A stretch of 63,947 nt of DNA, filler included, from Nitrospinae bacterium RIFCSPLOWO2_12_FULL_45_22 (GTDB lineage Bacteria > 2-12-FULL-45-22), in assembly GCA_001803565.1 (NCBI GenBank). It is 6 parts of 6 records of this genome, joined end to end, with 100 filler letters (N's around TTAATTAATTAA, not from the genome) between each part and the next. Parts side by side here need not be neighbours in the genome. Positions count along the whole stretch, not along the records: positions 12,958 to 20,784 come from MHDQ01000148.1; 5 more parts are not named here. The stretch is one strand, 5' to 3'. The position numbers and the translations under genes were made by a program. Each line of letters starts with the position of its first letter. Positions within the stretch are counted from its first letter, which is position 1. Below, one piece after another: positions 1-26,346 of the stretch. Under the pieces are notes generated by a model. That model saw only the letters and a program-made list of their open reading frames with translations. It was not told where the DNA came from and ran no database searches.

Positions 1-614
1 CCCAGATGATCATCTTGCTCAGGCTCGCCCTCCAATTGGCCCTCATAAAAGGGGTAATGCCGGCTAAAGAAATCACCTCTTTGGAGCAAAGTTTATATGC
101 ACTACCAGAAGCAGTTAAGCAGATATTAAATACCTATCCTGGCCTGATAAATAAATTAGCAGTAAAGCACCGGAAGGTAAAGAATTGGCTTTATCTGGGT
201 AGGGGCGTTTATTATCCTATTGCCTTAGAGGCGGCCTTAAAGATGAAAGAAGTGGCCTATCTCCATGCCGAAGGGATGCCCGCGGGCTTCCTCAAGCATG
301 GTACATTGGCCCTGATAGATGAAGAGGTTAATACTATTGGTTTTGTCCCACCTAGAGAAGATGAGGAGCTTTATCATCTCACTATCAGTAGTATGGAGGA
401 AGTAAGGGCCAGGGGAGGCCATATTATAGGTTTACATTTTGAGAAGGGAATTGACTTATTCCAGGATGAACTGATCCTTCCCAAGGTACCATTACTTATT
501 GCCCCCTTCACTCAACTGGTTGCAGCCCAGCTCCTGGCTTATTATACCGCCTCTGCCCTCAAACGGAACATAGATAAACCGCGGTCATTGGCAAAATCCG
601 TCACCGTCGCCTGA
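1..614 (+). CDS. glmS: Glutamine--fructose-6-phosphate aminotransferase, C-terminal SIS domain (5' partial)
   Basis: LGRG..YPIALEAALKMKE.AYLHAEG, LKHG.LALID and terminal DKPRSLAKSVTV motifs. Confidence 0.93.
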   Translation, partial: QMIILLRLALQLALIKGVMPAKEITSLEQSLYALPEAVKQILNTYPGLINKLAVKHRKVKNWLYLGRGVYYPIALEAALKMKEVAYLHAEGMPAGFLKHGTLALIDEEVNTIGFVPPREDEELYHLTISSMEEVRARGGHIIGLHFEKGIDLFQDELILPKVPLLIAPFTQLVAAQLLAYYTASALKRNIDKPRSLAKSVTVA

Positions 615-6490: not shown

Positions 6491-8386
6491 ATGAAGAAAG
6501 CGATATCTATCTTATTGTGGGGGTTCTTATCTGTTTTAGGGGCTATTGCTTTTATCTTTATTACCCAGATGTTCTATCCGGGCGAGCGGGTCAACGCCCT
6601 CTGGCTCGTGATAGCTGCCGTCTGCTTTTATCTTATTGCCTATCGCCTATATGCCTCATTTTTGGCGGTAAAAGTCTTTGCGTTAGACGATACGAACATT
6701 ACACCAGCTTACCGGCTAGCAGACAGTAAGGACTATTGCCCTACTAACAAATGGGTCTTATTCGGCCATCATTTTGCTGCCATTGCCGGTGCCGGGCCCC
6801 TGATAGGGCCGGTCTTAGCAGCCCAGTTCGGTTATTTGCCGGGGGCCTTGTGGCTCCTTATTGGTGCAGTATTTGCTGGTGGTGTACATGATTTTATTAT
6901 CCTGATGGCCTCGGTGCGGCGAAATGGCCTCTCCTTAGCAGAGATTGCCCGCAGGGAGGTAGGGCTCGTGAGTGGTATTGCTGCGGCCCTATGCATCCTT
7001 TTCATCATTATTGTGGCTTTGGCTGGATTGGGCTTAGTGGTAATAAATGCCTTGACCCATAGCCCCTGGGGTACCTTCTCTATCGGTATGACTATCCCGA
7101 TTGCTTTACTGATAGGATTCTATCTCCATTCCTTTAGGCCGGGCAAAGTAGCAGAAGTTTCTATCCTGGGGGTATCCCTCCTCTTGCTGGCAGTGATCTT
7201 TGGTGGCCGCATCCCTGGTTCCTGGCTCCATCCCTTTTTTGACCTGGATCGCAATATCTTGATCATCCTGATGGCTATCTATGGTTTTTTTGCGTCGGTC
7301 TTGCCCGTCTGGATGCTGTTGGCCCCCAGGGACTATCTGAGTACCTATATGAAGATCGGTACCGTCTTCCTCTTGGCCCTCGGGGTAATGATCATAGCCC
7401 CAACTATACAGATGCCGGCTACTACAGCCTTTGTTGACGGTGGAGGGCCAGTAATCCCAGGCGCCTTATTCCCTTTTATGTTTATAACTATCGCCTGTGG
7501 TGCCGTTTCAGGGTTCCATTCCCTAATAGCTTCCGGCACCACCCCCAAGATGATCGAGAAAGAATCCCATATGAAACTGATAGGGTTTGGGGCTATGCTG
7601 ACCGAGGGTTTTGTAGGTATCATTGCCCTTATTGCCGCTACTATCCTTATCCCAGGTGATTATTTTAGCATTAATACCCACCTCAGCCCTGAGCTGTTAG
7701 CTAAGCTAGGTTTTCCGGTTGGGCGGATAAAAGAGCTTTCTCAACTATTAGGTATAGAGGTAACGGGCCGGCCCGGTGGCGCCGTTTCTCTGGCAGTGGG
7801 GATGGCCTCGATCTTCTCCTCGTTGCCAGGTATGAAACATTTGTTGCCTTATTGGTATAATTTTGCTATCATGTTTGAGGCCCTATTCATACTTACTACT
7901 ATTGATGCCGGTACACGGGTGGCCCGCTTTATCTTACAAGAAATCGGGGGTTATGCCTACAAACCCCTGGGGAGAACCAACTGGCTCCCTGGGACCCTAC
8001 TTACCAGTGCTGTGGTAGTAAGTGCCTGGGGCTATCTGATTTATTCTGGGAGTATAGCTACTATCTGGCCCATGTTTGGGGTCGCTAACCAGCTCCTGGC
8101 AGCCTTTGCCTTGAGTGTAGGAACCACGGTTCTCATAAAGATGGGGAAGGTCCGCTACATCTGGGCCACTTTAGTCCCTATGGCTTTCATGGTAGCTGTT
8201 ACTTTGACAGCGTCCTGGAAACTTTTCTTTAGCTATCTGGATAATACTAGCAAGTCCTTTAGCTTCACTATTGATGCCATGTTAGTGGCTTTGATGGCGT
8301 CTTTAGTAATAGTGATCTTGTTGGACTCCGGTTGGAAGTGGTTGAAGAGCGCCGTAAGTGGTGAGGCAGTAAGTTGTTCCCATTGA
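6491..8386 (+). CDS. cstA: Carbon starvation protein A (peptide/pyruvate transporter)
   Basis: LFGHHFAAIAGAGPLIGP, ACGAVSGFH, TTIDAGTR, WPMFG.ANQL. Confidence 0.95.
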   Translation: MKKAISILLWGFLSVLGAIAFIFITQMFYPGERVNALWLVIAAVCFYLIAYRLYASFLAVKVFALDDTNITPAYRLADSKDYCPTNKWVLFGHHFAAIAGAGPLIGPVLAAQFGYLPGALWLLIGAVFAGGVHDFIILMASVRRNGLSLAEIARREVGLVSGIAAALCILFIIIVALAGLGLVVINALTHSPWGTFSIGMTIPIALLIGFYLHSFRPGKVAEVSILGVSLLLLAVIFGGRIPGSWLHPFFDLDRNILIILMAIYGFFASVLPVWMLLAPRDYLSTYMKIGTVFLLALGVMIIAPTIQMPATTAFVDGGGPVIPGALFPFMFITIACGAVSGFHSLIASGTTPKMIEKESHMKLIGFGAMLTEGFVGIIALIAATILIPGDYFSINTHLSPELLAKLGFPVGRIKELSQLLGIEVTGRPGGAVSLAVGMASIFSSLPGMKHLLPYWYNFAIMFEALFILTTIDAGTRVARFILQEIGGYAYKPLGRTNWLPGTLLTSAVVVSAWGYLIYSGSIATIWPMFGVANQLLAAFALSVGTTVLIKMGKVRYIWATLVPMAFMVAVTLTASWKLFFSYLDNTSKSFSFTIDAMLVALMASLVIVILLDSGWKWLKSAVSGEAVSCSH

Positions 8387-11464: not shown

Positions 11465-12832
11465 TTAAAAGGTACGGGTGAGAGCGTATTCAAAAGTGGG
11501 GCAATAGTGCTCCACACCATATCTTTCCCGGCCCCTATCCCCCTGGAGCCACTCGAACCGGGCATCAAAACTCCAGAGCCCTTTTTTGAAACCGATCCCC
11601 CAGCTTACTCCCCATTCGTTGTCATAAGGAGTAGTAGTAAAACCTGCTATGTCGTCGCTCGGATAAGCTCCCCGATCCTGGAAATAACCACTCCGAAAAG
11701 TCCATCTATCATTGAATTTCCACTCCAAACCCACCCGGTAACGGGTAGTTGCGCGCCAATCGAGATCAACATTCATATCCTTTAACATCTTCATTTTTTC
11801 ATCGGCAATATTATAATTAAAATCCCATTTCATAGTAGTCCAATCCGAGCGCTGCCAATCAAAAGTAATAGTCAGTTTTTTAAGGGGTTTTAGAGCTATC
11901 CCGATACCCCAGGTAGCGGGCATAGGGAGGCGCTGGGTATAATTACTACTCTCATTTATCCCCAAGGCAGTCTGTCGGACAAAGGCATCCCCTTCTATTT
12001 CCAGCGAGTCACCCGTTCTATATACCGCCCCGATACTCAACCAGGGCCTTACCCGCCATAGGAGGCCAAAGACCCCTTCTAGTCCGATACCACGGCCCTC
12101 CTGTTCAAAATCATACGCATAGTTTAACTCAGGCTGGGTAGTACTGAAATAGTCCTTATCTATATTATATTGGACGTTACTAATTAGGATGTTCAGACCG
12201 GTTCCGAGAGATAAATTAGGGGTTATTTTTTTTGCTACTGAGAAATTAAGGATAGGCATCAAGAATAAGGCATGATAAGAGGCATCTATCCGGGCATTAT
12301 TTTGCCTATCCAGGATAGTATCATCCCAATCTAACCAGTTACCCAAAGGGGTATAAAGGGAGGCGCCAAAATTAAATCCTTTCCATTTAAAATAACCCCC
12401 CATGCTGGGCTGAAAAAAGGGCAGGTTAATCCATTCCCGCTCAAACCTCAGAGATTCAGAGCCATATATCCGGTTAAATACCTCGCCCCTCTTAATATAT
12501 TGCTGGGCCTGACGCTCGTTAGCCGGCAGATCCGGGTTTGATACGGAGTCATTATCTTTAGAAAAATCATTCATGTTATAAAGTACTATACCAAACCCCT
12601 TACCCTTCAGTTGAGTAATCCCGGCTGGATTCCAGTATATAGCGGTCCAATCATCGGCCAGGCCGATAAATGCGCCACCCATACCACCGGCCCTGGCCCC
12701 TAAGCCCTCCCACTCAAATCCTGCGGGATAAGCTAATGTGACATATCCTAAGATAGACAGAGAGATTACTGAATAAATAAATACCTTCAAAGAACCTCTT
12801 TTCAGCAACATAAATTCAAAAAATTGTAACAT
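11465..12832 (-). CDS. FadL/OmpP1/TodX-family outer-membrane transporter
   Basis: Signal peptide then AGF...GARAGGMGGAF...ADD.TAIYWNPAG; C-terminal Phe. Confidence 0.85.
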   Translation of the reverse strand: MLQFFEFMLLKRGSLKVFIYSVISLSILGYVTLAYPAGFEWEGLGARAGGMGGAFIGLADDWTAIYWNPAGITQLKGKGFGIVLYNMNDFSKDNDSVSNPDLPANERQAQQYIKRGEVFNRIYGSESLRFEREWINLPFFQPSMGGYFKWKGFNFGASLYTPLGNWLDWDDTILDRQNNARIDASYHALFLMPILNFSVAKKITPNLSLGTGLNILISNVQYNIDKDYFSTTQPELNYAYDFEQEGRGIGLEGVFGLLWRVRPWLSIGAVYRTGDSLEIEGDAFVRQTALGINESSNYTQRLPMPATWGIGIALKPLKKLTITFDWQRSDWTTMKWDFNYNIADEKMKMLKDMNVDLDWRATTRYRVGLEWKFNDRWTFRSGYFQDRGAYPSDDIAGFTTTPYDNEWGVSWGIGFKKGLWSFDARFEWLQGDRGRERYGVEHYCPTFEYALTRTF

Positions 12833-12857
12833 TTTAGCCCCCCAATAAGGCTTTATG

Positions 12858-12957
12858 NNNNNNNNNNNNNNNNNNNNNNNNNNNNNNNNNNNNNNNNNNN
12901 NTTAATTAATTAANNNNNNNNNNNNNNNNNNNNNNNNNNNNNNNNNNNNNNNNNNNN
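12858..12957. other. Artificial contig linker (N-TTAATTAATTAA-N)
   Basis: Six-frame-stop spacer inside an N run. Confidence 0.95.
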
Positions 12958-13416
12958 TTACTTTTCTACCGTAGACGAACTTACTTTTCTACCGTAGACG
13001 AACCGCTCGGGCAAGATGGAGTCACAAAAAAGGATTGGCTCTTGAGCGCTATTGCCTTTGAGACGTATTGGTTGAAGGGCGAGCTCTGGTCATTATTGCA
13101 GATCCAGCAATGGCAAGTCTTTGGTTACAACCACAACTTGCGCAGTATGGGCAAACTCCAAGAAGAGGATGAATGGGTCTTTCTCCTGGGATTTTCTAAA
13201 GATTTTAAATTTACTGATGACCGGTTAGGTGTCAACTGGACCAGTGCCTTCTTTGATGATGGGTCTGGTTTGCAACGCTATCAGATTAAATATATCATCT
13301 CCGATTATCTATCCTGCTGGGTGCGCTATTGGGGCTTTTATGGCCGTTCGGATGATAGATTCGGCATGTTTAAGGATCGGGATCAGATTGAGTTTGTCCT
13401 CACTTATGAGTTTTAA
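12958..13416 (+). CDS. C-terminal fragment of a DUF1302-like outer-membrane protein (5' lost at contig edge)
   Basis: Frame open upstream of 13042; C-terminus FGMFKDRDQIEFVLTYEF; DUF1329-like neighbours. Confidence 0.55.
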   Translation, partial: LLFYRRRTYFSTVDEPLGQDGVTKKDWLLSAIAFETYWLKGELWSLLQIQQWQVFGYNHNLRSMGKLQEEDEWVFLLGFSKDFKFTDDRLGVNWTSAFFDDGSGLQRYQIKYIISDYLSCWVRYWGFYGRSDDRFGMFKDRDQIEFVLTYEF

Positions 13417-14458
13417 TGGCCAGTATAGGGCTTCTAGGGGAGGGTTTTTCTGGCAAATCAGAAGCATCATTGATCGGGGGTATGGAGCCGCCTTTTGGTA
13501 AGCGCCATTGATATTGCTTTATTATCTGGCTGGGCACAAAGAAATCATCCCTAACCTCTTGATCAAATATCCAATCATACAACTGAACGATGGTACGGCT
13601 ATTGGTAATGATATTCAGACCGTTCCATTCTTCTCTTACCCAGTAGTTCCAGGGTTTGATCTGGCGCCACCGGTTCTCGATGACTTTCCAAAGCTTCCCT
13701 TGCCGATCAAACTGCTCCTCATGAAGAGTTAAAAAATTGTCCTTTTCTATCCATGATAATCTCTTTCCCAGATAATAAAGAGGATCCTGGTTTATACTTT
13801 CTACTATAAAACATTTCTGACCATTTATAGTGTCTTCGCCGATAATGCGGTGATATTCTTCCCAGGGTTCATATAGACTAAAATCATCCCGGGTCATCTC
13901 TGAACCAATAAAGTTATCCTTTTTAGGACGAGAAGGGGAACGTCTAACCTTTCTTAAATCGGGCGCCCAGATCCAGGTATCCTCCAGCTTAGTCTGTTCT
14001 TTAGAGGTTAATAATCTATGCCAAACTAGACCCAGCCCCCATTCATTGGGTGGGCTCAAATAAATAACCACCCTCTTTATCCGGACATCCCCAGGTTTAA
14101 TATCGCTATAGGTTAAAAGAGAGCGGTAGTTATTATAATAATATTTGTCCCTCTCTAGCCAAGTTTTGATGCTGATAAGACCATTAGCCCCTACCCGGAT
14201 AAAGCGACAGACCGCGTCATTATCCTTGGTCCCGGGATAAAGGTGGGTATCGGCATAAGTCATTAGTTCTAGCCCGGTGTAACCATATTTTTTCAGGTCC
14301 AGCTTTTCTTCTGGTGTTAGCTCCTTTCGGCCCTGCTGGAGCCGGGCAACCCAGGGATCGCCAATTAGCTCCTTAGGATTAATCCAATGGGCTGCCCAAG
14401 AAATAGAAAAGAATAAGGGGCAGAAGAAAAGAAATGTTATGAGCTTCGTTATCATCAC
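13400..14458 (-). CDS. DUF1329 / LolA-like outer-membrane lipoprotein-sorting family protein
   Basis: Signal peptide; WIWAPDLRKVRR, F.GSEMT.DD, EEQFDRQGKLWK. Confidence 0.75.
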   Translation of the reverse strand: MMITKLITFLFFCPLFFSISWAAHWINPKELIGDPWVARLQQGRKELTPEEKLDLKKYGYTGLELMTYADTHLYPGTKDNDAVCRFIRVGANGLISIKTWLERDKYYYNNYRSLLTYSDIKPGDVRIKRVVIYLSPPNEWGLGLVWHRLLTSKEQTKLEDTWIWAPDLRKVRRSPSRPKKDNFIGSEMTRDDFSLYEPWEEYHRIIGEDTINGQKCFIVESINQDPLYYLGKRLSWIEKDNFLTLHEEQFDRQGKLWKVIENRWRQIKPWNYWVREEWNGLNIITNSRTIVQLYDWIFDQEVRDDFFVPSQIIKQYQWRLPKGGSIPPINDASDLPEKPSPRSPILAIKTHK

Positions 14459-14467
14459 GTCTTTCTC

Positions 14468-15922
14468 TTATTCAAGGTTCTGGTATTTGGTACCATCGGC
14501 CCAGCCCATAGGGTCAAACCCAGCCCGGGCCTTCCACATATCCTGAGTAGCTTTGAATTTGGCTTTGACTTTTGGGTCAAGCCGCTCTATCCCAAGCCGG
14601 TCTTTATGCTTCTTCTCTTCATAAAGCAGGGGAAGGGGGGGAAAGTGCTCAGCTTTGGTCACAGGCCGAATCTTTAGCGGCGGACGCCAGAAATATTCCT
14701 TAGACAACTCAGGTATAGTATACTTGCTCTCTGGGATTTTAACACCAAATTTGTAACCACCAAGCCACTGAAATCCCCAATATTCCCGCTTTGCATCTCC
14801 GAATATCATGGTAGTCTTTCCCCAAGAAAACCTTCCTTTATAGGAATTAGGATAGGGCTTCCAGGTAGAATTTCCTAACCCCAACCGGTAAAGGTTACCC
14901 TGATGGTCAAAATGTTCTTCCCGGAGGTGTAATTTGGTATGCTTCTCTATCCAGTTGAGGATATATCCCAGGTAATAATTAGGGTCTTTAGGGATAACCT
15001 TAACTACCCAGCACTCTAGTCCACCATCGGCCCGATAAGGATTCATAGCATCTCCCCAGACCCCTTCGCCCGGAAAGACTGGGTTATCTGCAATTACCTT
15101 TGGGTCTCCCAAGATGCCATAACCCTTCATGCCATTAACTTCGTAGATGGTATCTTCACCAATGATCTCATAATTGAACTCCCAGACCTGTCGCTCCCCA
15201 AAATCATCATTAGTTAAAGGGAAACCCAGGGCATCATCCTGGCGGTCACCACCGGCCGAGCGCCTCACCCGCCTCAAAGCCGGTACCCAGATATAGCGGT
15301 CTGGGTCTTTCCATCTCCCTGGGGCATTATTATACTTAATTTGTAGCTGGGCCAGGCCTCTGGTTTCTGGGGGGAAATCAAGAAGAGTAAAGGTTTTGAG
15401 CCAGATGGCATTGATCCCCTTCTTATAATGGACTATCTCATCAAACCGCTCCCAGTTCTGGGTCCGCATGAGATAGACATTTCTGTTAGTAACCAAACCC
15501 CGGCGGTTAATGGTAGGGAGATAGGTAAGGTAGTCCTGGGTTATACCTCCCTCACCATACCAAAAGTTAAGCTCCCGAAACCACATAAGCTCCTCCCCAG
15601 TATAAGGGACATCGCTCCGGGGCCAGGATGGCTTGAACGGAAACTTATCTCTGGGCATCCAGGGATATTCAGGATGACGGTGAGCCGGGTCGGTCCAGTC
15701 CTTTATTGGCTCTGCATAAGGAGTCCAACCTTTAATGTTTGAAGGTGCAGGTGCATAAGGGTCTATCTCTACCCATATACTTTTTCCCCTCTCAAATTTA
15801 ATCTTCTTACCTTCCAGGGCTAATGCTCTCGAAGGATTAAACCAGCAAAATACTAGACCCAGCAATAAGGCAACTTTATAACTGACCCTCTTCCTCTCCA
15901 TAAGACACGCCCTCCTCTCCAT
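14468..15922 (-). CDS. DUF1329 / LolA-like family protein
   Basis: Signal peptide; YIWVPALRRVRR, EEHFDHQGNLYR; paralog of 13400-14458. Confidence 0.75.
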   Translation of the reverse strand: MERRACLMERKRVSYKVALLLGLVFCWFNPSRALALEGKKIKFERGKSIWVEIDPYAPAPSNIKGWTPYAEPIKDWTDPAHRHPEYPWMPRDKFPFKPSWPRSDVPYTGEELMWFRELNFWYGEGGITQDYLTYLPTINRRGLVTNRNVYLMRTQNWERFDEIVHYKKGINAIWLKTFTLLDFPPETRGLAQLQIKYNNAPGRWKDPDRYIWVPALRRVRRSAGGDRQDDALGFPLTNDDFGERQVWEFNYEIIGEDTIYEVNGMKGYGILGDPKVIADNPVFPGEGVWGDAMNPYRADGGLECWVVKVIPKDPNYYLGYILNWIEKHTKLHLREEHFDHQGNLYRLGLGNSTWKPYPNSYKGRFSWGKTTMIFGDAKREYWGFQWLGGYKFGVKIPESKYTIPELSKEYFWRPPLKIRPVTKAEHFPPLPLLYEEKKHKDRLGIERLDPKVKAKFKATQDMWKARAGFDPMGWADGTKYQNLE

Positions 15923-16003: not shown

Positions 16004-17230
16004 CTAGTCTAGCATTTCCATAAACTCTTCTATCCTATCCAGGTCTTGTTCTCGGCTGGCCCGGTGTCGTTCATCGCAGAGGTCGCCATCCAGGATTAAT
16101 GAGGGGATGCCCAAGTCTCGATGAATAATATCCTTCACAGCCAGGTTTTGACCCCCTAGAACCCGGCAGCCCCAATGAGATAGGATAACCAGGCCATCTA
16201 TTTTGTATTCATCAATAAGTTTCTTGATATAGTTGATCCTGAGCGGTAGATAATCTAGGTAGGCAAAGTTATGAATCATCCTCCTGGCCCAGCTCTCAGC
16301 GGGATGATCTGGGTCTAGTCGGCCGCCGGCCCATCCTATATCCAGGTCTGCTTTCACCAGCACACCGCCAAAATCCTCAAAATAATTGAACAGGCCTATG
16401 TCATACCACCATGCTGGTCCGCCCACTAATAACAGCCGATGCTTCTCCTCATCTATGACCCCTCGACCCTTATTGACCCGTTCTTGCATCTCGTTCCTAA
16501 CCTTTTGCAGGAAATGGGTTGCCTCGGGGGTGCCTGTCAGGGCCATAGGGACAAACAGGCTAACAACTTCGTCCATAGCACCAGAAGGACATGGAATAGC
16601 CTTTTTCAATTCAGAAATATCACTCCACAGTTCCAATGCCTCATTGGTCATACAGTAAACATCCCTCAGTCTATTCATATCCAGTTGCTCGCCAGTTTGC
16701 TGTTCCAGAAATTCAATCATCTCATTATATTGATAGGCAAAGTATCTTACACTCTCCTCAGATATTTTAAGCTCGCCCTCCTTAGATAGGCTGAATCCCC
16801 CGGAAATATCTATCATAAAGAAAGGCAGTCCTAATTTTTCCGCGATGACCTCTCCAGACTTACCCGCACTATCACAAAGGCAACCGAGGCCTACCACAAA
16901 ATCTGGCCTGGGGTACATGATCTCCTCCTGAGACAATAGGGCCCCGACGAAGCCCCGGTGGAGGGCTCACGAGTCCCTGCCGTAGCCATGGGCTTCTGCC
17001 AGGAGCAAATAAGGCATGCCAGCCCCGCCTTTGGCGCTCATCTGGGCCGTAAAACCCTCACAGAAAATCGGGACAATATCCATAGCAAGCAATAGTTCCC
17101 TGGGTGTACCGCTTAGATGCCAGCATACTGGTCTACCCTCCTCTTTCTTGCGCCGGGCCTTAACATGATAGTCCTTTATTAAGGGCCAGAGCGTGCGTGT
17201 TGCTTGCAAGCCATATCTCTTTACAGCCAT
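16004..17230 (-). CDS. 2-hydroxyacyl-CoA dehydratase family subunit (HgdA/FldB-like), 408 aa with in-frame TGA at codon 88 (candidate selenocysteine)
   Basis: ORFs 16967-17296 and 16004-16936 share a frame, separated only by TGA 16969-16967; readthrough gives GYGRDS-U-ALHRG...PRPDF...CLCD...HWGCR...DGDLCD. Confidence 0.75.
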
Positions 17231-17362
17231 GATTTTCCCTCCCTCTATTTTTACTTCGTGCTTCTTTTTTAATTCCAACCTATTGCGTAGGGGCAAATGT
17301 CTCTGCCTACCCTTAGTGGGTCTGTTAATCTCTTTTTTTATCTCCTTTATCCCTGGCAGGCA

Positions 17363-18490
17363 CTATGGCCGAGAAAGCATCTCTAAGAAAGCTTGAACTC
17401 GGGTCTTGACCTGTCCAATACTAAGTGAAGAGTGTTCTATCTCTAGCTCTAATGTAGGGATGTCATATCTCTTGAGCATATCTATACATTCCGGGGTGTC
17501 ATAGACAAAATTGTCACAAAACTTTATAAGGAAGATAATTACCCCATCTACCTGGAATTCCCGGGCCAAATTAATGATATGCTGAAACCGTTTTTCCCGG
17601 GGATGGATAAAAGGACAGGGAATTCTTTCCAGATAGTGGTTAACAAGGGCTTCAAGAGGATCTTTGTCCAGCTTAACTTGATCCCAAAAATACCGGCTAC
17701 CCATACACAAATCATCACTTACGACGATGGCTCCTGCATCCTCGACGGCTTTTATAAACGCCGGGTTATCAATCATGCTGCCAGTAATCAATATCCTTGG
17801 CTTTTTATCTGAACTGATACTTGGACTGCCTTTCAGTTTATCCAAAAGCCCCTTGATCAGGGAGCTGCTCTTCTCTTTTGGCAATATCATGCTAGAGCGG
17901 ACCACCTGGGCCACCTCATGCCCCCATATCTTTACCCCCCTTTCCTTATTACGCCATTGATAAACTTCCTTTAAAAGGGCACGGTTTTCGTTACATAGCC
18001 TTATAGCATGCCTCAATGCCTCAGAAGAAATTTTAACCTTGCCGAACTCCTCCAACTCAAAGATAAACCTCTCTATTTCTTTTTTATAATAACTATGAGT
18101 AAAATCCGATATCCGGTGAGGATGATCAATGACATACATAAAGGGAACCTTACTATATAGCTCCCATACATCGTGTAGCTTACGCATCTGGCCACAACTC
18201 CGGGCTGTAATCAATCCATCCAGAAACTGGTACCTACCTTCCAGGACTTCTCCTAAACAGCTCCGGATAAAAGAACAGATATTGACCTGTAAAACAGATT
18301 CGCCTTTATGACTTCCGTTTATACCGCCAAAGACCCTTATAGGTAGCATATCTGCAGCATAAATGATCTCTTCTGGTACATAGAGACAGGTATACCCCAT
18401 AACTTTTTTGTTCCTAGACTTCCAACCCGCTATCTCTTCTTGAGATAGTAAGGTCAACCTGGCCATATCAAACTCTTTTAAAATATCCAT
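17363..18490 (-). CDS. 2-hydroxyacyl-CoA dehydratase family subunit (HgdB/FldC-like)
   Basis: C.YVPEEII.AA, NICSF, DDLCMGSR, KFCD, TRVQAFLEML; GGAGG RBS. Confidence 0.88.
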   Translation of the reverse strand: MDILKEFDMARLTLLSQEEIAGWKSRNKKVMGYTCLYVPEEIIYAADMLPIRVFGGINGSHKGESVLQVNICSFIRSCLGEVLEGRYQFLDGLITARSCGQMRKLHDVWELYSKVPFMYVIDHPHRISDFTHSYYKKEIERFIFELEEFGKVKISSEALRHAIRLCNENRALLKEVYQWRNKERGVKIWGHEVAQVVRSSMILPKEKSSSLIKGLLDKLKGSPSISSDKKPRILITGSMIDNPAFIKAVEDAGAIVVSDDLCMGSRYFWDQVKLDKDPLEALVNHYLERIPCPFIHPREKRFQHIINLAREFQVDGVIIFLIKFCDNFVYDTPECIDMLKRYDIPTLELEIEHSSLSIGQVKTRVQAFLEMLSRP

Positions 18491-18630
18491 CACCTTTTCA
18501 TACCCTCCTTCTTTTTTTCTCCGATAAGTTTTGCTGACTGCTGCCACCTGACGGCTGGACGCTTGCCTATTTTTCATTGGCCAATTGACCAAATAATATA
18601 TAAAAAAAGAGGAAGAGTCAAAGAATTTTT

Positions 18631-18923: not shown

Positions 18924-20483
18924 TCATTTTAATAATGCGGTTTTGTGGTAGTCGCCTGCCTGTGACCTGGCAGACAGGCAGGCTTTAGCCGGCGTTAATT
19001 TTTTTAGCATGGTAGTTTGTAACTCCGAGAGAGAAGCCTCTAATTGGGGCAATTTATGGGTTTTCAAGGTTAAGGATAATGCCTGTTCAAAACCTTCTAT
19101 GACCAAGCAGTTCAGCCTCTTAAATATCTTTTCTTCTTCTGGCGTGCTGTCAGACATATCCAAATCCCTGCCCTGGACATAAGCCAGTACTCTACGAGAA
19201 ACCTCCGCCTGGTACTCATATAAGAGCTGTACCCTGGGCTCAAAAGTATCGAGCCCAAGGAAATATTCCGAGCCGGTTTTTTGCCTGATCATGCAGTAAA
19301 GGGGATGGCCCCAGGAGATGAAGGTTGGGTGATAAAGGACATGACAGGTAGTAGTTGGGGTATGGAGGAGTTCCTGCTCTTTAAGGAACCGGAGATTCTC
19401 TGCTATATCTTCTAAGTTAGAAAAGGGTGCAAACATAATAAAACCGGTAGAGATATTCAAACCATGTCTCCGGCAGAGTTGTAATGCCTTTATACTATCC
19501 GTTACCCTAATATTTTTCTTCACCCTATCCAGCCACCGCTGGCTTCCACTCTCTATGCCCAGGAATATATAGCGTAGCCCCGCCTCGCTCAGTAATGCCA
19601 GGGAGCTCTCTTGAATATCATTGACCCGGGTTTCAAAACCAAAGACTATCCCAGGGGCCTGCTCTTTTATTAATCGCGCCAGCTCCATAGCCCGCTGTTG
19701 TCCGAACAACCCGGGGCCAAAAAAGTTAGGATCAGCAAAATAAAAATGGGATTTCAGTGGCTCTTCCAAAAGAGTTATAATTTCCCTGACAATATTCTGG
19801 GGACTGCGGCCCCGCCACCCTGCCTGATAACCATAAAAGGGATTAATATAGCAGAAAAAGCAACTGTTATAACAACCCCGACTCCCTTGAATATAAGTAA
19901 ACGTTGAATCGGTTTCAGATTGGATACGGCAGGGGAAAGGTAAAGAATCCAGCTCCATAATAGGCGATTGATAAGCCCCTTTAATAATGTTACCAGTAGT
20001 ATCCCGATAGGCTATACCAGGAAACCCTTGCCAGCTTTCCTTTTTTCCCAGGGCAGTGGCTAATTCAGCTATGGTAATCTCCGGTTCTCCCAGGGTAATA
20101 GAATCTATAACCGGGTATTGGGAAAGGATTAAGTCATAAGCAAAGGTAGGATAATAACCGAACAGATTGATATGGGCCGTGGGGTTTATATCTTTAACCT
20201 CTTTCAGCGACTGGATTATCTTGTCGGTATTTTCAAAACTATATATCAGTTGCAAGGATAAGAGGTAAGGCTCCTGGCCCATAAGGTTAGCGATGCAGGT
20301 TGGTATCTCAGCCAGACCCCAGCCCTTCTGTTGGGCATCTATCAGATAATGGGATATGCCGCGCTCTTTCAAGACTGCTGCTACATATCCCGGCATAAGG
20401 CAGGCTGTCAGGGGAGAATCTACTACTACATCATAACTCTCGGCAGTCCAGAACCTGGGATAACTTAGTATTATTACCGACAT
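18924..20483 (-). CDS. Cobalamin-binding radical SAM protein
   Basis: N-terminal B12-binding-like domain, GEPE, SRGCYNSCFFC (CxxxCxxC), F.DPNF, GIESG. Confidence 0.88.
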   Translation of the reverse strand: MSVIILSYPRFWTAESYDVVVDSPLTACLMPGYVAAVLKERGISHYLIDAQQKGWGLAEIPTCIANLMGQEPYLLSLQLIYSFENTDKIIQSLKEVKDINPTAHINLFGYYPTFAYDLILSQYPVIDSITLGEPEITIAELATALGKKESWQGFPGIAYRDTTGNIIKGAYQSPIMELDSLPFPCRIQSETDSTFTYIQGSRGCYNSCFFCYINPFYGYQAGWRGRSPQNIVREIITLLEEPLKSHFYFADPNFFGPGLFGQQRAMELARLIKEQAPGIVFGFETRVNDIQESSLALLSEAGLRYIFLGIESGSQRWLDRVKKNIRVTDSIKALQLCRRHGLNISTGFIMFAPFSNLEDIAENLRFLKEQELLHTPTTTCHVLYHPTFISWGHPLYCMIRQKTGSEYFLGLDTFEPRVQLLYEYQAEVSRRVLAYVQGRDLDMSDSTPEEEKIFKRLNCLVIEGFEQALSLTLKTHKLPQLEASLSELQTTMLKKLTPAKACLSARSQAGDYHKTALLK

Positions 20484-20528
20484 AACCTCCCCCACTCCCT
20501 TCTTCTGAGTAAGTATCCTAACCAATTT

Positions 20529-20784: not shown

Positions 20785-20883
20785 NNNNNNNNNNNNNNNN
20801 NNNNNNNNNNNNNNNNNNNNNNNNNNNNTTAATTAATTAANNNNNNNNNNNNNNNNNNNNNNNNNNNNNNNNNNNNNNNNNNN
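20785..20883. other. Artificial contig linker
   Basis: N-TTAATTAATTAA-N. Confidence 0.95.
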
Positions 20884-22092
20884 NGTGGGTGTTACTAAAA
20901 CATCGCACTTCTCGAAGGCGTCTTTGAAATCTTGACGGAAAAGGGTCCTGACTTGTTGGGCCTTACGGTAATAGGCTTCATAATAGCCAGCGCTGAGGGT
21001 ATAGGTACCCAGCATGATGCGCCTCTTTACCTCCGGGCCAAAACCTTCTTTTCTGGTCTTTTGGTACATGTCTAATAAGCCCTGGGCCTTCGGGGTCCTA
21101 TAGCCATACTTTACCCCATCATATCGGGCCAGGTTAGAGCTGGCCTCGGCGGTAGCTATGATGTAATAAGTGGCTAAGGCATAAGGAGTATGGGGCAGAG
21201 ATACTTCCAGACAAGTAGCACCCAGGTCTTCATATATCTTGAGTGCTTGCCTGATTTTATCCTCTACCTCCGGGTCTATCCCTTCAATAAAATACTCTCT
21301 GGGAACCCCGATCCTTAAGCCCTTTACCTCAGGAACCAATGCCTGGGTATAATCGGGCACGGGCAGGTCTACACAGGTAGAGTCAAAGGGGTCTTTACCG
21401 GCTATAATATTGAGCAGGATAGCAGTATCAGTCACATCCTTAGTCATCGGCCCTATCTGATCCAGCGAAGAGGCATAAGCTACCAGACCAAACCGGGATA
21501 CCCGGCCATAAGTGGGCTTCAGTCCTACAATACCACAATGAGAGGCTGGCTGGCGGATAGAGCCGCCGGTATCAGAACCTAAGGCTGCCATACATTCATC
21601 AGCGGCAACAGCCGCCGCCGACCCACCACTGGAGCCACCCGGTACATATTCCGGGTTCCACGGGTTATGGGTCACGCCAAAGGCAGAGTTTTCTGTAGAT
21701 GAGCCCATAGCGAACTCATCCATATTAGTCTTACCCAGGAATATAGCCCCATTGTCCCGCAACCGTCCTATGACCGCAGCATCATAAGGAGGAATATAAT
21801 TGGCCAGGACCCTTGAGGCACAGGTAGTCTTGATCCCTTTAGTACACAATACATCCTTGATAGCCAGGGGTATGCCCAGTAATGGCGGCAGGTGATCCCC
21901 TTTTGCTAATAATCTATCCGCCGCACGGGCCTGTTCTATAGCCGCTTCTGGGGTAAGGGTGATATAGGCATGGATTTTGTTTTCTACTTGCTCAATACGC
22001 TGTAGGACAGCCTTAGTAACCTCTTCAGAGCTTACTGATTTTTTCCGTAACAGGCCCTGCAATTCGTGGATAGTTAGCTGGTATAATTCCAT
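20884..22092 (-). CDS. gatA: Asp/Glu-tRNA amidotransferase subunit A (3' partial)
   Basis: [43 protein letters not shown]. Confidence 0.96.
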
Positions 22093-22093
22093 A

Positions 22094-22381
22094 TTATTCA
22101 ATAATCTTAGGTACTTTATAATGACTCTGTTCCTGGGCTGGGGCATTAGAGAGGGTGACATGGCCCCAGGGTCCTACCTTTACCTGGTCTTCTTTAAATA
22201 CATTGGTAAATTCCAGGATATGAGAGGTAGGTTCGATACCCGTGGTATCCAATTCATTAAGCTTATCCATATATTCCAGGGTCGCACTCAACTGATGAGT
22301 AAACTTCTCTATCTCCTCTTCACCCAATTCCAGCCGGGCTAACCTGGCCACATGCTCTACCTCTTTCCGATCAATCTTCAA
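22094..22381 (-). CDS. gatC: Asp/Glu-tRNA amidotransferase subunit C
   Basis: [24 protein letters not shown]...Y.VPKIIE; TTG start after GGAG. Confidence 0.93.
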
Positions 22382-24318: not shown

Positions 24319-25161
24319 ATGTTTAATTATATTTGTGAAGAGTGCGGTAAGGGTACTGTCAAAGAAAAAGTTTTTGAAAATTATCGAACAAAAATTAAAG
24401 GGTATCCTTTTGTTGTTGATAAGGCCATAATTGGCGTTTGCGATCGATGCGGAGCGAAACATTTTAAGGCGAATGAAACAAAACGTTGGGAAGAACTTTA
24501 TAACAAGGATTTAGAATTAAAACATATTTCACTACTACCTGACGAAATTGAAGCAGTAAGGAAATCTTTGGGCCTTTCGATGGAAGATTTTGCGTATCTT
24601 ATCGGGTGTACACGTCAATCGATTTATAACTGGGAGAAAAAAGATAGAGAAAAGCCCCAATCTCGAATGGCCGATTTACTTATAAAACTTGTTCGTTATT
24701 CTTTTGAGGTTGGCAAAGTAGATGTTATCAATTTCCTTACAGAAGAGGCCAAAAAATTAGGAATTACGATAGAAGTGGCAAAACAAACTTCTTCTACCCT
24801 TATAGGTAACATAATCCACCTTAATGTTAAAAAAGTTCCCAGAGATTATTTTCAAAAGCCAAAAGGCAGTCTTTCATTAGCCGCTGTAGCAGTTGAAGAA
24901 AGAGAGATCACAATAGCTGAATCCTTGGAGCAAGAATTAACTGGCATTTTACATTATGACTATGGAAGGGCTGCTCTATCGTTAGAGATAGAAAAAAATA
25001 CAATTGGATTAAAGATCGTTGATTTTGAACTGGTAACAAATAATGATAGGCATTATATTAGGCAGGATGTAAAAATTGAAGATAACCGCATATTATTGCT
25101 CTCGGATACAGAATATACAGAAGATAAAGTTAGAGAAATCATTTTAAAGCCGAAATCCTGA
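24319..25161 (+). CDS. MqsA-like antitoxin (YgiT-type Zn finger + XRE HTH) with long C-terminal extension
   Basis: CEECG...CDRCG; IEAVRKSLGLSMEDFAYLIGCTRQSIYNWE; 280 aa. Confidence 0.75.
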   Translation: MFNYICEECGKGTVKEKVFENYRTKIKGYPFVVDKAIIGVCDRCGAKHFKANETKRWEELYNKDLELKHISLLPDEIEAVRKSLGLSMEDFAYLIGCTRQSIYNWEKKDREKPQSRMADLLIKLVRYSFEVGKVDVINFLTEEAKKLGITIEVAKQTSSTLIGNIIHLNVKKVPRDYFQKPKGSLSLAAVAVEEREITIAESLEQELTGILHYDYGRAALSLEIEKNTIGLKIVDFELVTNNDRHYIRQDVKIEDNRILLLSDTEYTEDKVREIILKPKS

Positions 25162-25173
25162 AAAAGGTCAAAA

Positions 25174-26346
25174 ATGGGTATGGAGGAGCATGTAGAAAGG
25201 TTAAAAAGACTGAAAGGGCTTCTTCGCGAAGCCTTCATTCTGCTTCCTGCTTTTAATAATAGACAAGAGACTCAACCATTAGACGAGCTTTTTAATAATA
25301 TTTGTAGATTACTTTTCACCGATGATTTTTACCTTCATCTGTGGGATGAAGGAGCCCTTTATCAATTAGTAGAGTTTTTCAAGGCTAAAACACCTAATCC
25401 AACAGTATACGGAGAGCGGCTTACTAAACTCTCAGAGCGTAAGAATTTTGTCCAACAGACAAATGAGTTCTTTTTCTCAATCCTTAGTCATGAATTTCCT
25501 ATGGAAGAAGTTGTCAATAGAGTATCTGCACTTACCAAGATTGATGAAGCAGCCTTCTTGAAACTTAAGGCTTCAGGCCATTTGCAGGATATTAGAGCAA
25601 GTAAGTCTCCTGCCTCAGAAAAGATTGAGGCTTTCATTGAACATCTTATAAATGATATGGGCGTCAATTTTGGAGAGGCAGAAGACGGTTTGAGGCAGGT
25701 TCTTGCTTCTATAAAGGCACAGGAAACCCCGGGAAGGGCAAACGCCCTTTTGGTTAATACATCAAGTAATGCAGGGATTCTTATTCCATTATCAACTCGT
25801 CTCCAACTCGGTAAAGGTGAAGTACACTGTCTCATATCTAGTGGTGGCGATTTCAAGACAGCAATAGATAGAGCCAGGCATTTGTTGCTCAGCAACGGTT
25901 TTCTCAATAGGATGGACGATGTAGATTATTCATTAGATATTACCGAGGCAAGCTATAGTGGGGATTCAATAGGGTTGGCTGCTGCTATTGCTATGTATGG
26001 TGCTGCCACAAAGCAATCAATAGACCCTTATACATCCTTTACAGGTAATATAAACCTTGAAGGTAACCAATACAAGATTACACCTGTTAAAGGAATTAGC
26101 CAAAAACTTGATGCTGCTATACTGAACGGATGTCGGCGTGTTTTTATCCCTATACAGAACCACTCAGAAATTAGTGGCGATTATACTAAAAAATTACAGA
26201 TTATTTGTGTTAGTGATATTACAGATGTACTATTGAAATTACAGACTTCACTTGAACCTCTCCCCGGCGATACACTCCAGATAAGAAAAATTAATTTTTT
26301 ACGGGCGTATTGCCAAAATACCCTCAACCCCGATGCCACACTTTGA
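25174..26346 (+). CDS. Unknown N-terminal domain plus Lon (S16) protease domain, no AAA+ module; possibly 3'-truncated
   Basis: SGDSIGLAAAIAM, FTGNINLEG, PVKGISQKLDAA, VFIP..N (Ser-Lys dyad pattern). Confidence 0.72.
   Translation: MGMEEHVERLKRLKGLLREAFILLPAFNNRQETQPLDELFNNICRLLFTDDFYLHLWDEGALYQLVEFFKAKTPNPTVYGERLTKLSERKNFVQQTNEFFFSILSHEFPMEEVVNRVSALTKIDEAAFLKLKASGHLQDIRASKSPASEKIEAFIEHLINDMGVNFGEAEDGLRQVLASIKAQETPGRANALLVNTSSNAGILIPLSTRLQLGKGEVHCLISSGGDFKTAIDRARHLLLSNGFLNRMDDVDYSLDITEASYSGDSIGLAAAIAMYGAATKQSIDPYTSFTGNINLEGNQYKITPVKGISQKLDAAILNGCRRVFIPIQNHSEISGDYTKKLQIICVSDITDVLLKLQTSLEPLPGDTLQIRKINFLRAYCQNTLNPDATL

What the first reader, a model, noticed from the sequence alone, without database searches (positions are those of the whole stretch)
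16004..17230. Probable selenocysteine at an iron-sulfur ligand of a 2-hydroxyacyl-CoA dehydratase-family subunit
Seen: two called ORFs are one frame broken only by TGA (16969-16967): GAC TCG TGA GCC CTC CAC CGG = DS-U-ALHR. Readthrough gives 408 aa, a normal full length, with no other lesion. The two in-window paralogs read NI-C-SFTR and NI-C-SFIR at the equivalent place, so the TGA falls on the conserved Cys; the later Cys motifs (CLCD, HWGCR) are intact. Known: these subunits bind [4Fe-4S] through three Cys, and bacterial Sec is encoded by UGA plus a 3' SECIS. Inference: a Sec-ligated cluster in a radical dehydratase/reductase, which pipelines would mis-call as a pseudogene. Caveat: TGY to TGA is a single substitution.
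Basis: partly seen in the sequence, partly recalled or inferred. Interest (0 to 1): 0.85.

Follow-up and report, generated by a model that had tools for sequence, protein, structure and literature searches.

The report
Selenocysteine at an iron-sulfur ligand codon
A gene that looks broken by a stop codon most likely encodes one complete radical-enzyme subunit, with selenocysteine in place of a cysteine that normally holds the catalytic iron-sulfur cluster; no such selenoprotein turned up in this enzyme family in the literature I searched.

Summary
Window 16004-17230 (-) is one 408-codon frame with a single TGA at codon 88. It is an HGD-D family subunit (PF06050, 220 bits).

Codon 88 aligns with Cys95 of BzdO. 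Cys95 is one of three cysteines that ligate BzdO's catalytic [4Fe-4S]-OH2 cluster (PMC11971306). The other two ligand positions, C119 and C355, are intact.

The TGA is neither an error nor a fresh mutation:
- A 59%-identical orthologue (L003/L004) has TGA at the same codon.
- All 9 closest database homologues (57-99% identity) are called truncated just after it.
- Both N-terminal fragments found are exactly 87 aa.
- Both halves are under purifying selection.
- More distant relatives have Cys at this column: 40 of 43 loci.
- TGA ends ordinary genes in the window.
- An 8-bp hairpin with a GU-containing loop lies about 10 nt downstream and is kept in the orthologue.

Not testable: selA/B/C/D, because no genome is held. 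Six of the eight literature searches looked for a selenoprotein in this family; none found one.

Verdict: probable new selenoprotein variant, confidence about 0.8.

The parts
16004..17230 (-). Alpha-type (HadB/BzdO-like) catalytic subunit gene: 408 codons read through one TGA, then TAG
   Evidence: frame. (PF06050 HGD-D, E 7.6e-65, 220.2 bits against cut-off 28.4). (best solved relatives: HadB 3o3m_A at 2.1e-28, MbdO at 5.8e-21, BzdO at 1.2e-20).
16967..16969 (-). In-frame UGA, codon 88; proposed selenocysteine at the first of three ligand positions of the catalytic [4Fe-4S] cluster
   Evidence: It aligns to BzdO Cys95, counted from the alignment. The BzdO ligands Cys95/128/380 are stated in PMC11971306. 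TGA sits at the same codon in L003 and L004. 40 of 43 related loci have Cys there.
16924..16964 (-). SECIS-like stem-loop. The upper 8-bp stem GGGGCUUC/GGGGCCCU with loop GUC lies at 16956-16938, which is +14 to +32 counted from the U of UGA. The lower stem CCUCC/GGAGG lies at 16964-16960 and 16928-16924.
   Evidence: this is the MFE of the 48 nt starting at UGA (-18.5 kcal/mol). The upper hairpin alone is -10.3 in the window and -11.1 in L003, and its pair probabilities in L003 are 0.47-1.0; the upper stem is kept in L003 with one compatible change (U.G to U-A). Not significant against shuffles (z -0.20 and -0.95). No Rfam match.
16874..16876 (-). Cys119 codon (CLCD motif), second cluster ligand position
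   Evidence: Aligns to BzdO Cys128. Invariant in 43 of 43 loci that cover it.
16166..16168 (-). Cys355 codon (HWGCR motif), third cluster ligand position
   Evidence: Aligns to BzdO Cys380. Cys in all 49 loci that cover it.
17363..18592 (-). Beta-type partner subunit (BzdN-like, predicted [8Fe-9S] double-cubane carrier), immediately upstream. The start is uncertain: the gene call P0057 is 404 aa, while homologues are 362-395 aa.
   Evidence: PF06050, 325 bits. (NF040772 double_cubane, 239.9 bits, below the 350 cut-off). (best solved relative BzdN 8s02_B, E 3.3e-56; Cys aligned to all six BzdN ligands 36/73/100/263/293/327, which are listed). Searches used 17363-18484, a query that starts two codons after an internal Met.
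18924..20525 (-). B12-binding radical SAM protein upstream on the same strand (possible operon partner; role not established)
   Evidence: PF04055 at 9.9e-19; PF02310 at 8e-05; no NCBIfam model reaches its cut-off.
11465..15922 (-). Downstream, same strand: two LolA-like/DUF1329 proteins (14468-15922 and 13400-14458) and a FadL/TodX-type outer-membrane channel (11465-12832)
   Evidence: This context is not shared by the orthologue locus L003, so it is probably not part of the conserved unit.

Best explanation
The two called ORFs are one gene for the alpha-type (substrate-binding) subunit of a two-subunit iron-sulfur radical enzyme of the 2-hydroxyacyl-CoA dehydratase / class I benzoyl-CoA reductase / double-cubane superfamily. 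UGA at codon 88 is decoded as selenocysteine, directed by a hairpin that begins about 10 nt downstream. Together with Cys119 and Cys355, Sec88 occupies the three protein-ligand positions of the catalytic [4Fe-4S] cluster. In HadB and BzdO the fourth iron of this cluster carries water or substrate. The upstream gene encodes the beta partner, which keeps all six cysteines of the BzdN [8Fe-9S] double cubane. The inferred electron path is: an ATP-dependent activator (not found in the window), then the beta double cubane, then the alpha Sec/Cys/Cys [4Fe-4S] cluster, then an acyl-CoA-type substrate. Shown here: the frame, the conserved TGA, the Cys/TGA column, purifying selection on both halves, the ligand alignment, and the conserved hairpin. 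Inferred: actual Sec insertion, Fe-Se ligation, the electron path and the substrate class.
For: (1) There is a single TGA in an otherwise intact 408-codon frame.

(2) TGA sits at the identical codon in L003 and L004. These encode the same protein on two metagenome records, 59% identical to the window's.

(3) Of 31 homologues, the 9 closest (57-99% identity) are all 293-321 aa and cover 71-78% of the query. They begin between residue 91 and about 118. The other 22 (26-33% identity) cover 84-100% of the query.

(4) Both short hits to the N-terminal part are exactly 87 aa and end in GRDS. 87-aa and roughly 315-aa fragments occur on contigs of equal length (2760, 5185, 3191 and 10023 nt), which points to the same split in at least three further lineages.

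(5) Window against L003: for the N-terminal 87 codons pN is 0.27 and pS 0.93; for the C-terminal 320 codons pN is 0.26 and pS 0.75. Protein identity is 60% and 58%. Both halves are therefore maintained as protein.

(6) The column is Cys in 40 of 43 related loci; the other 3 are the TGA loci. It is also Cys in the 9 of 9 more distant relatives that cover it. The nearest full-length relative (P0178) is 42% identical.

(7) The column corresponds to BzdO Cys95. C119 corresponds to Cys128 and C355 to Cys380 (alignment). Those three are the cluster ligands, and HadB has the same coordination (PMC11971306, passages read).

(8) TGA is an ordinary stop in this DNA. It ends 11 of 36 long frames, and there is no other split gene in the window.

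(9) An 8-bp GC-rich hairpin with a GUC/GUG loop at +22..24 is kept in both lineages with one compatible change. From recall, the E. coli fdhF mini-SECIS starts 11 nt after UGA and has its loop G23/U24 at nearly the same distance.

(10) The codon stands in L002 and in contigs of runs X1 and X4.
Against: The selenocysteine machinery (selA, selB, selC, selD) could not be looked for because no genome is held, and the window has no tRNA or Rfam match.

The hairpin is not more stable than shuffled sequence (z -0.20 in the window, -0.95 in L003). In a 60-76 nt context the window's MFE prefers a competing hairpin that includes the GA of UGA. The upper-stem pair probability in the 70-nt ensemble of the window is about 0.

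Synonymous-codon identity in the 11 codons after TGA (5 of 11) is not clearly above the gene-wide 39% (88 of 226). With only two distinct DNA sequences there is no real covariation test.

No Rfam SECIS model matches.

In the window an AGGAGGAG run precedes ATG105. Reinitiation giving a 304-aa product is therefore physically possible here.

The identity of the stop codon is known from DNA in only two lineages. In the others it is inferred from the ORF boundaries.

No activator ATPase (PF01869) was found among 49 window ORFs or 7 L003 ORFs.
Confidence: 0.8

Rival explanations
1. Naturally split gene. UGA is a real stop. An 87-aa N-terminal peptide and a roughly 300-aa C-terminal protein are made separately, by reinitiation at a nearby start, and assemble into an alpha subunit whose cluster has only two cysteine ligands.
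For: The window has a strong AGGAGGAG plus ATG at codon 105, which is where gene callers start the 304-aa product. Both halves are conserved as protein, as a split gene would also require.
Against: There is no conserved restart. L003 has no ATG at codon 105 (it reads ATT ATA there), and callers use codon 90/91, 95, 99 or about 112 in different lineages. The stop falls exactly on an otherwise invariant metal-ligand Cys column in every lineage. [quoted passage not shown]
Confidence: 0.07
2. Pseudogene, or a sequencing or assembly error: a single TGY-to-TGA substitution has inactivated the gene.
For: TGC/TGT to TGA is one substitution. Annotation pipelines treat the gene as fragments.
Against: The same TGA is present in a 59%-identical orthologue whose synonymous sites are saturated (pS 0.75-0.93) while pN is 0.26-0.27 on both sides. 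There is no second lesion in 408 codons. The codon recurs in independent assemblies. 9 of 9 close homologues are truncated at the same place.
Confidence: 0.03
3. UGA is recoded, but not to selenocysteine. It could be read as cysteine by a SelB-dependent tRNA-Cys with a UCA anticodon (a system recalled from Mukai et al. 2016, not read here), or as Trp/Cys by near-cognate readthrough.
For: This reading would explain the conserved UGA, the Cys column and a SECIS-like hairpin equally well. The tRNA complement of the organism is unknown.
Against: Such systems are rare (recalled). TGA is an ordinary stop for 11 of 36 long frames here, so there is no genome-wide reassignment. If cysteine were wanted, a TGY codon would do, and all more distant relatives use one.
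Confidence: 0.05
4. Selenocysteine is inserted but is not, or not only, a static cluster ligand. For example it could be a hemilabile or redox-active residue next to the cluster.
For: In most known selenoenzymes Sec is a catalytic redox residue (established knowledge). Ligation here is inferred only from alignment to BzdO and HadB.
Against: The two other ligand cysteines and the surrounding motif are conserved. No spare cysteine is conserved nearby to take over ligation: the CLC/CMC pair has C117 only nearly invariant.
Confidence: 0.05

Closest known systems
BzdNO, catalytic module of the Bzd-type class I benzoyl-CoA reductase of Aromatoleum sp. CIB (PDB 8S02; PMC11971306)
   Same: The two-gene beta-then-alpha arrangement. 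Alpha has the three ligand positions of the [4Fe-4S]-OH2 cluster (Cys95/128/380 correspond to U88/C119/C355) and the Trp46 and Glu65 equivalents (W37, E58). Beta keeps all six [8Fe-9S] cysteines and has BzdN as its best solved relative (E 3.3e-56).
   Different: Selenocysteine codon instead of Cys95. BzdO His131, the proposed acid/base, is Ala122 here and Leu in L003. The TIGR03191 score is 89.7 against a cut-off of 448.6. No BzdPQ-like ATPase is nearby.
(R)-2-hydroxyisocaproyl-CoA dehydratase HadBC of Clostridioides difficile (PDB 3O3M)
   Same: HadB is the best solved relative of the alpha subunit (E 2.1e-28, residues 16-406). It has the same cluster coordination as BzdO and an alanine at the His131 position. 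The orthologue locus L003 carries a family III CoA-transferase and an enoyl-CoA hydratase next to the pair, which fits an acyl-CoA pathway.
   Different: NF052455 scores 131 against a cut-off of 750. The beta partner is of the double-cubane type; from recall, HadC carries a single [4Fe-4S]. Sec replaces the first ligand Cys. No HadI-like activator was seen.
Double-cubane cluster proteins (DCCP; PDB 6ENO, 7YYL; NCBIfam NF040772)
   Same: Same superfamily. The beta subunit and the stand-alone paralogue at 5296-6411 are of this type.
   Different: [quoted passage not shown] Here the selenium would be in the polypeptide of the alpha partner, not in a DCCP.
Established metal-ligating selenocysteines: formate dehydrogenase (Mo/W), [NiFeSe] hydrogenase (Ni), and the Sec/Cys position of HdrA near a [4Fe-4S] cluster in some methanogens (all recalled, none read here)
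   Same: A Sec/Cys pair at a metal-ligand position, with UGA plus a downstream hairpin in bacteria.
   Different: The metal site is different: it is the catalytic, substrate-facing [4Fe-4S] cluster of an ATP-dependent radical enzyme. My search for the HdrA precedent did not retrieve a passage confirming it.

Membership tests
Pfam PF06050 HGD-D (2-hydroxyglutaryl-CoA dehydratase D-component superfamily) | Profile score above the gathering threshold over the full domain | tested here: met
   220.2 bits against 28.4, profile positions 3-342 of 342, residues 41-407 of the read-through protein.
Alpha-type catalytic subunit (HadB/BzdO/MbdO type) | Three conserved ligands of the catalytic [4Fe-4S] cluster (BzdO Cys95, Cys128, Cys380) | tested here: met
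   U88 (TGA), C119 and C355 align to the three ligands. Position 88 is a Sec codon instead of Cys.
HadB equivalog (NF052455), BzdO (TIGR03191), BcrB (TIGR02260) | Score at or above NCBIfam's curated cut-off | tested here: not met
   131 against 750, 89.7 against 448.6, and 87.1 against 486.55. It is not a member of any characterised equivalog; the substrate is unknown.
Bzd-type benzoyl-CoA reductase | His131/Glu65 proton-relay pair at the water ligand | tested here: not met
   the Glu65 equivalent E58 is present, but His131 aligns to Ala122 in the window and Leu in L003.
ATP-dependent HAD/BCR/DCCP systems | Associated activator or reductase ATPase (BcrAD_BadFG, PF01869) | tested here: not met
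   No PF01869 hit in 49 window ORFs or in 7 ORFs of L003. It may lie elsewhere in the genome, which is not held.
Bacterial selenoprotein | In-frame UGA conserved in orthologues, with conserved protein sequence on both sides | tested here: met
   TGA in L003 and L004; truncation pattern; pN well below pS on both sides.
Bacterial selenoprotein | Homologues with Cys at the UGA column | tested here: met
   40 of 43 loci have Cys. Cys in 9 of 9 more distant relatives that cover the column. Cys in HadB, MbdO, BzdO and DCCP.
Bacterial selenoprotein | SECIS stem-loop at the right distance 3' of UGA | tested here: inconclusive
   An 8-bp stem at +14..+32 with a GUC/GUG loop is kept in both lineages. 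But it is not above shuffles, only two distinct sequences exist, there is no excess synonymous conservation, and there is no Rfam hit.
Bacterial selenoprotein | selA, selB, selD and tRNA-Sec in the genome | not testable with these tools
   No genome is held for the window. None of these lie in the 64-kb window (Pfam scans).
Bacterial selenoprotein | Selenium in the polypeptide | not testable with these tools
   This needs 75Se labelling or mass spectrometry.

The most novel reading that the evidence does not exclude
This would be a natural selenolate-ligated catalytic [4Fe-4S] cluster, and the first selenoprotein of the ATP-dependent HAD/BCR/double-cubane radical-enzyme superfamily. It is paired with a BzdN-like [8Fe-9S] subunit and confined to one narrow clade of uncultured soil, groundwater and sediment bacteria. 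One cluster member carries an NCBI 'Nitrospinae bacterium' label. The Cys-to-Sec exchange would tune the potential or spin distribution of the substrate-facing cluster for an unusually demanding ketyl or hydrogen-atom-transfer reaction.
Probability: 0.65. Interest if true: 0.8.

Novelty: new variant of a known kind. Interest (0 to 1): 0.72.

Why it matters
If selenocysteine really ligates the catalytic cluster, nature has done here what chemists do on purpose: swap a thiolate for a selenolate on a [4Fe-4S] cluster that initiates radical chemistry at very low potential. A direct U88C comparison would show what the heavier chalcogen buys in a Birch-type or ketyl-radical enzyme.

It also extends the short list of metal sites with Sec ligands. 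From recall these are Mo/W in formate dehydrogenase and Ni in [NiFeSe] hydrogenase.

In practice, every database entry of this clade is currently a pair of fragments: an 87-aa 'hypothetical protein' and a roughly 300-aa 'BcrC/BadD/HgdB' protein. Pathway reconstructions for these organisms therefore miss, or misjudge as broken, a complete enzyme.

Tried and rejected
- Own-genome searches for selB, selA, selD and tRNA-Sec failed because no genome is held. The machinery question stays open.
- Rfam at gathering thresholds on the whole window gave 0 matches. ARAGORN found 0 tRNAs.
- Rfam at E up to 10 on 151 nt around the TGA gave only two chance-level hits on the opposite strand in the window (p27_CRE at E 3.4, chrB-a at E 6.6) and none in L003.
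- A search for other selenoprotein genes in the window found none. I looked for TAA/TAG-delimited frames holding one or two TGAs, and for extensions past TGA stops. The other same-frame pairs are ordinary adjacent genes, such as SIS/PGM and IlvD/IlvB.
- The genome-contig scan found only a distant archaeal relative with Cys (L001). Neither the window's lineage nor L003's is in that collection.
- The metagenome scan returned DNA for only one further Sec lineage (L003/L004). The contigs behind P0003, P0004 and P0006-P0010 could not be fetched, so hairpin covariation could not be tested.
- Sequencing runs: no RNA holder is listed, so nothing can be said about expression.
- In runs X12 and X13 the TGA region is not covered, or only by a 35-nt piece of another organism. 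I draw no conclusion from this.
- Scan-archive look-ups by place, by sequence and by specific words returned nothing for this genome.
- The search for a text confirming that HdrA's Sec/Cys position ligates a [4Fe-4S] cluster did not retrieve one. That precedent is cited from recall only.
- A first dN/dS script failed because MAFFT rejected the letter U. It was rerun with C at that column.
- Genome-wide reassignment of TGA (tables 4 and 25) is rejected because TGA ends 11 of 36 long frames.
Full report
OBSERVATION. On the minus strand, 17230-16004 is one reading frame of 408 sense codons ending in TAG. Its only interruption is TGA at 16969-16967 (codon 88), in the context D-S-U-A-L-H-R. The ATG at 17230 follows a GAGGGAGGG run. 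The read-through protein matches Pfam HGD-D end to end (220 bits against a cut-off of 28.4). Those two proteins are beta/double-cubane-type relatives that the alpha protein does not detect by tblastn. The proper comparators are the alpha-type subunits HadB, MbdO and BzdO, which all have Cys aligned to codon 88.

WHAT THE CODON CORRESPONDS TO. I counted along the phmmer alignment to BzdO (8s02_A). Residue 88 aligns to Cys95, C119 to Cys128 and C355 to Cys380. The paper on the BzdNO structure (PMC11971306; I read the passages returned) states that the catalytic [4Fe-4S] cluster of BzdO is bound by exactly Cys95, Cys128 and Cys380 plus a water/hydroxide ligand that faces the substrate. It also states that HadB has the same coordination. 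So the TGA sits on the first of three protein ligands of the catalytic cluster. The BzdO Trp46 and Glu65 equivalents are present (W37, E58). The BzdO His131 equivalent is Ala122 in the window, as in HadB, and Leu in L003.

THE TGA IS CONSERVED, NOT ACCIDENTAL.
- In the 5.8-billion-protein search, 31 homologues passed E 0.001. The 9 closest (57-99% identity) are all 293-321 aa, cover only 71-78% of the query, and start between residues 91 and about 118. The other 22 (26-33% identity, 384-683 aa) cover 84-100% of the query.
- A search restricted to shorter proteins with residues 1-110 found 2 hits among 4 candidates. Both are exactly 87 aa and end in GRDS, at 89% and 71% identity.
- Cluster look-ups show 87-aa and roughly 315-aa fragments on contigs of the same length (2760, 5185, 3191 and 10023 nt). 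The same split therefore exists in at least three further lineages.
- DNA was obtainable for one diverged lineage. L003 and L004 come from two metagenome records and encode the same protein, 59% identical to the window's. They carry TGA at precisely the aligned codon (GFGRDS-U-SLHRGF) and have no other stop.
- Between the window and L003, synonymous sites are saturated while non-synonymous change is low and equal on both sides of the TGA. For the N-terminal 87 codons pN is 0.27 and pS 0.93; for the C-terminal 320 codons pN is 0.26 and pS 0.75. The part upstream of the TGA is therefore maintained as protein just like the rest.
- At 50% clustering of 15 billion proteins, the clade collapses to one C-terminal representative (P0007) and one N-terminal representative (P0056). 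The next relatives are full length at 42% identity or less. All 9 of the more distant relatives that cover the column have Cys there.
- Among the 50 loci fetched, 43 cover the column. 40 have Cys. The 3 with TGA are L002 (the window's own protein), L003 and L004.

NOT AN ASSEMBLY ARTEFACT, NOT A REASSIGNED CODE. L002, another metagenome contig, gives the identical protein with the TGA. A 1356-nt contig of run X1 spans 16004-17330 with two differences, both upstream of the start codon. A contig of run X4 covers 16967-17330. One of these holders may be the window's own source sample, so they do not all count as independent. TGA terminates 11 of 36 long frames in the window. No other gene in the window is split by a TGA.

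SECIS. Counting the U of UGA as +1, nucleotides +14 to +32 form an 8-bp GC-rich stem (GGGGCUUC/GGGGCCCU) closed by the loop GUC. In L003 the same stem has one compatible change (U.G to U-A) and the loop is GUG. For the 48 nt from the UGA, this hairpin, extended by a CCUCC/GGAGG lower stem, is the minimum-energy fold in the window (-18.5 kcal/mol). The equivalent extended hairpin is the MFE in L003 (-16.6), with pair probabilities of 0.47-1.0. From recall, the E. coli fdhF minimal SECIS starts 11 nt after UGA and presents G23/U24 in its loop. Here the spacer is 10 nt and the loop G-U lies at +22/+23.

The weaknesses of this evidence are real. The fold is not better than shuffles (z -0.20 and -0.95). 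In longer contexts the window prefers a competing hairpin that includes the GA of the UGA itself, although that hairpin could not persist with the codon in the ribosomal A site (inference). Synonymous-codon identity after the TGA (5 of 11) is not clearly above the gene-wide 88 of 226. Only two distinct sequences exist for comparison. Rfam has no match. I rate the SECIS as compatible but not demonstrated.

THE ENZYME. The gene immediately upstream (17363-18592) is the beta-type partner. Its best solved relative is BzdN (E 3.3e-56). It has Cys aligned to all six ligands of the BzdN [8Fe-9S] double cubane (36/73/100/263/293/327). Its NCBIfam double_cubane score is 239.9, below the 350 cut-off. 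The same beta-alpha order is seen in L003. It is also implied by equal contig lengths for P0058/P0055, P0059/P0003, P0063/P0009 and P0064/P0004.

The alpha subunit is closest to HadB (E 2.1e-28) but reaches no equivalog cut-off: HadB 131 against 750, BzdO 89.7 against 448.6, BcrB 87.1 against 486.55. The unit thus combines a HadB-like alpha (Ala at the His131 position) with a BzdN-like double-cubane beta, and its substrate is unknown.

In L003 the neighbours are a family III CoA-transferase, an ATP-grasp CoA-ligase-like protein, an enoyl-CoA hydratase and a phosphorylase, which fits a CoA-thioester substrate. In the window the neighbours differ. A B12-binding radical SAM protein and GatA lie upstream. 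Two LolA-like/DUF1329 proteins and a FadL-type channel lie downstream. No activator ATPase (PF01869) was found in 49 window ORFs or 7 L003 ORFs. This is a gap in the mechanistic picture, not a contradiction, because the rest of the genome is unseen.

RIVALS.
- A pseudogene or error is very unlikely given the conservation above.
- A naturally split gene is the most serious rival for the window alone, because AGGAGGAG-ATG at codon 105 could support reinitiation. But that start is absent in L003. Gene callers pick four different restart positions across lineages. [quoted passage not shown]
- Recoding of UGA to Cys by a special tRNA cannot be excluded without the genome, but such systems are rare (recalled).
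- That Sec is inserted but does not ligate iron is possible. Ligation rests on homology only.

NOVELTY. Six full-text searches found no report of a selenoprotein in this family: selenocysteine with 2-hydroxyacyl-CoA dehydratase; selenoprotein with 2-hydroxyglutaryl-CoA dehydratase; selenoproteome with benzoyl-CoA reductase; selenocysteine with benzoyl-CoA reductase and selenoprotein; 'selenoprotein families' with HgdB; HdrA with selenocysteine and Cys197. The nearest texts are these:
- Haft's 2022 preprint says double-cubane proteins are not known to be connected to selenium beyond neighbourhood (passages).
- A 2015 comparative-genomics paper lists HgdB-like genes only as neighbours of selenium genes (passages).
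- PMC5736913 concerns formate dehydrogenases only (passages).

The library lacks most subscription journals and the supplementary tables were closed, so a listing in a selenoproteome catalogue cannot be excluded. NCBIfam release 20 has no model that claims this protein.

Two earlier notes of this scan are relevant only as contrast or background. One describes a Bzd-type subunit with a TGA at a variable Arg position, judged an ordinary premature stop. The other describes a DCCP inside a selenium operon.

VERDICT. The gene is most likely a selenocysteine-containing alpha subunit of a HAD/BCR-type iron-sulfur radical enzyme (confidence about 0.8). It represents a narrow clade, one cluster at 50% identity, of uncultured soil, groundwater and sediment bacteria. 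Outstanding items are the Sec machinery, direct selenium detection, the activator and the substrate.

Noticed in passing
window 5296-6411 (+): A third HGD-D protein (371 aa), 43.5% identical to the beta subunit, with the double-cubane-type Cys motifs (VCTY, NICSFTRSC, TNTCD, DDLCCGSRYFW, MPCA, KFCD). It stands alone between a hexapeptide-repeat transferase (4448-5278) and CstA (6491-8386), with no alpha partner and no activator nearby.
   Followed up: partly
window 16917-16934 (-): AGGAGGAG followed 5 nt later by ATG at codon 105 of the alpha gene. This explains why gene callers emit a 304-aa product for this lineage. The GGAGG is also the 3' arm of the lower stem of the SECIS-like hairpin. 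It is not conserved in L003.
   Followed up: yes
window 16961-16971: Logan contigs of three runs break next to the TGA. In X4 the pieces end at 16965 and restart at 16967. X12 has no cover from 16754 to 16970. X13 has only a 35-nt piece of another organism at 16961-16995, with 5 differences. This may reflect strain variation at the codon after the TGA (Ala in the window, Ser in L003), or simply low depth.
   Followed up: no
window 18924-20525 (-) and 20833-22161 (-): A B12-binding radical SAM protein with no NCBIfam equivalog (best is BchE-like at 111.8 against 481) lies directly upstream of the beta/alpha pair. Beyond it is a protein that passes the GatA equivalog cut-off (554.8 against 481.1). 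Whether the radical SAM enzyme works with the Sec enzyme is unknown; it is absent from the L003 locus.
   Followed up: partly
window 11465-15922 (-): Two tandem LolA-like/DUF1329 proteins and a FadL/TodX-type outer-membrane channel lie downstream on the same strand. This is a set usually linked to uptake of hydrophobic compounds, and may hint at the substrate class in this lineage.
   Followed up: no
L003 475-4618 (+): The orthologue's neighbourhood is a CoA-ester pathway: a family III CoA-transferase, an ATP-grasp/CoA-ligase-like protein, a weak DsrE-like hit (E 8e-4) and an enoyl-CoA hydratase. These are followed by beta and alpha(Sec) and then a PNP_UDP_1 phosphorylase.
   Followed up: partly
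window 24319-26346 (+): An MqsA-like/HTH_3 protein (280 aa) is followed in the same frame, after a TGA and four codons, by a 390-aa protein with a Lon_C proteolytic domain. Most likely these are two adjacent genes; not examined further.
   Followed up: no
P0310: A 303-aa representative, 33% identical, begins about 15 residues after the ligand column (query residue 103). It could be cut by a contig end, or it could mark a second, independent Sec or stop case in the family. No DNA was available.
   Followed up: no
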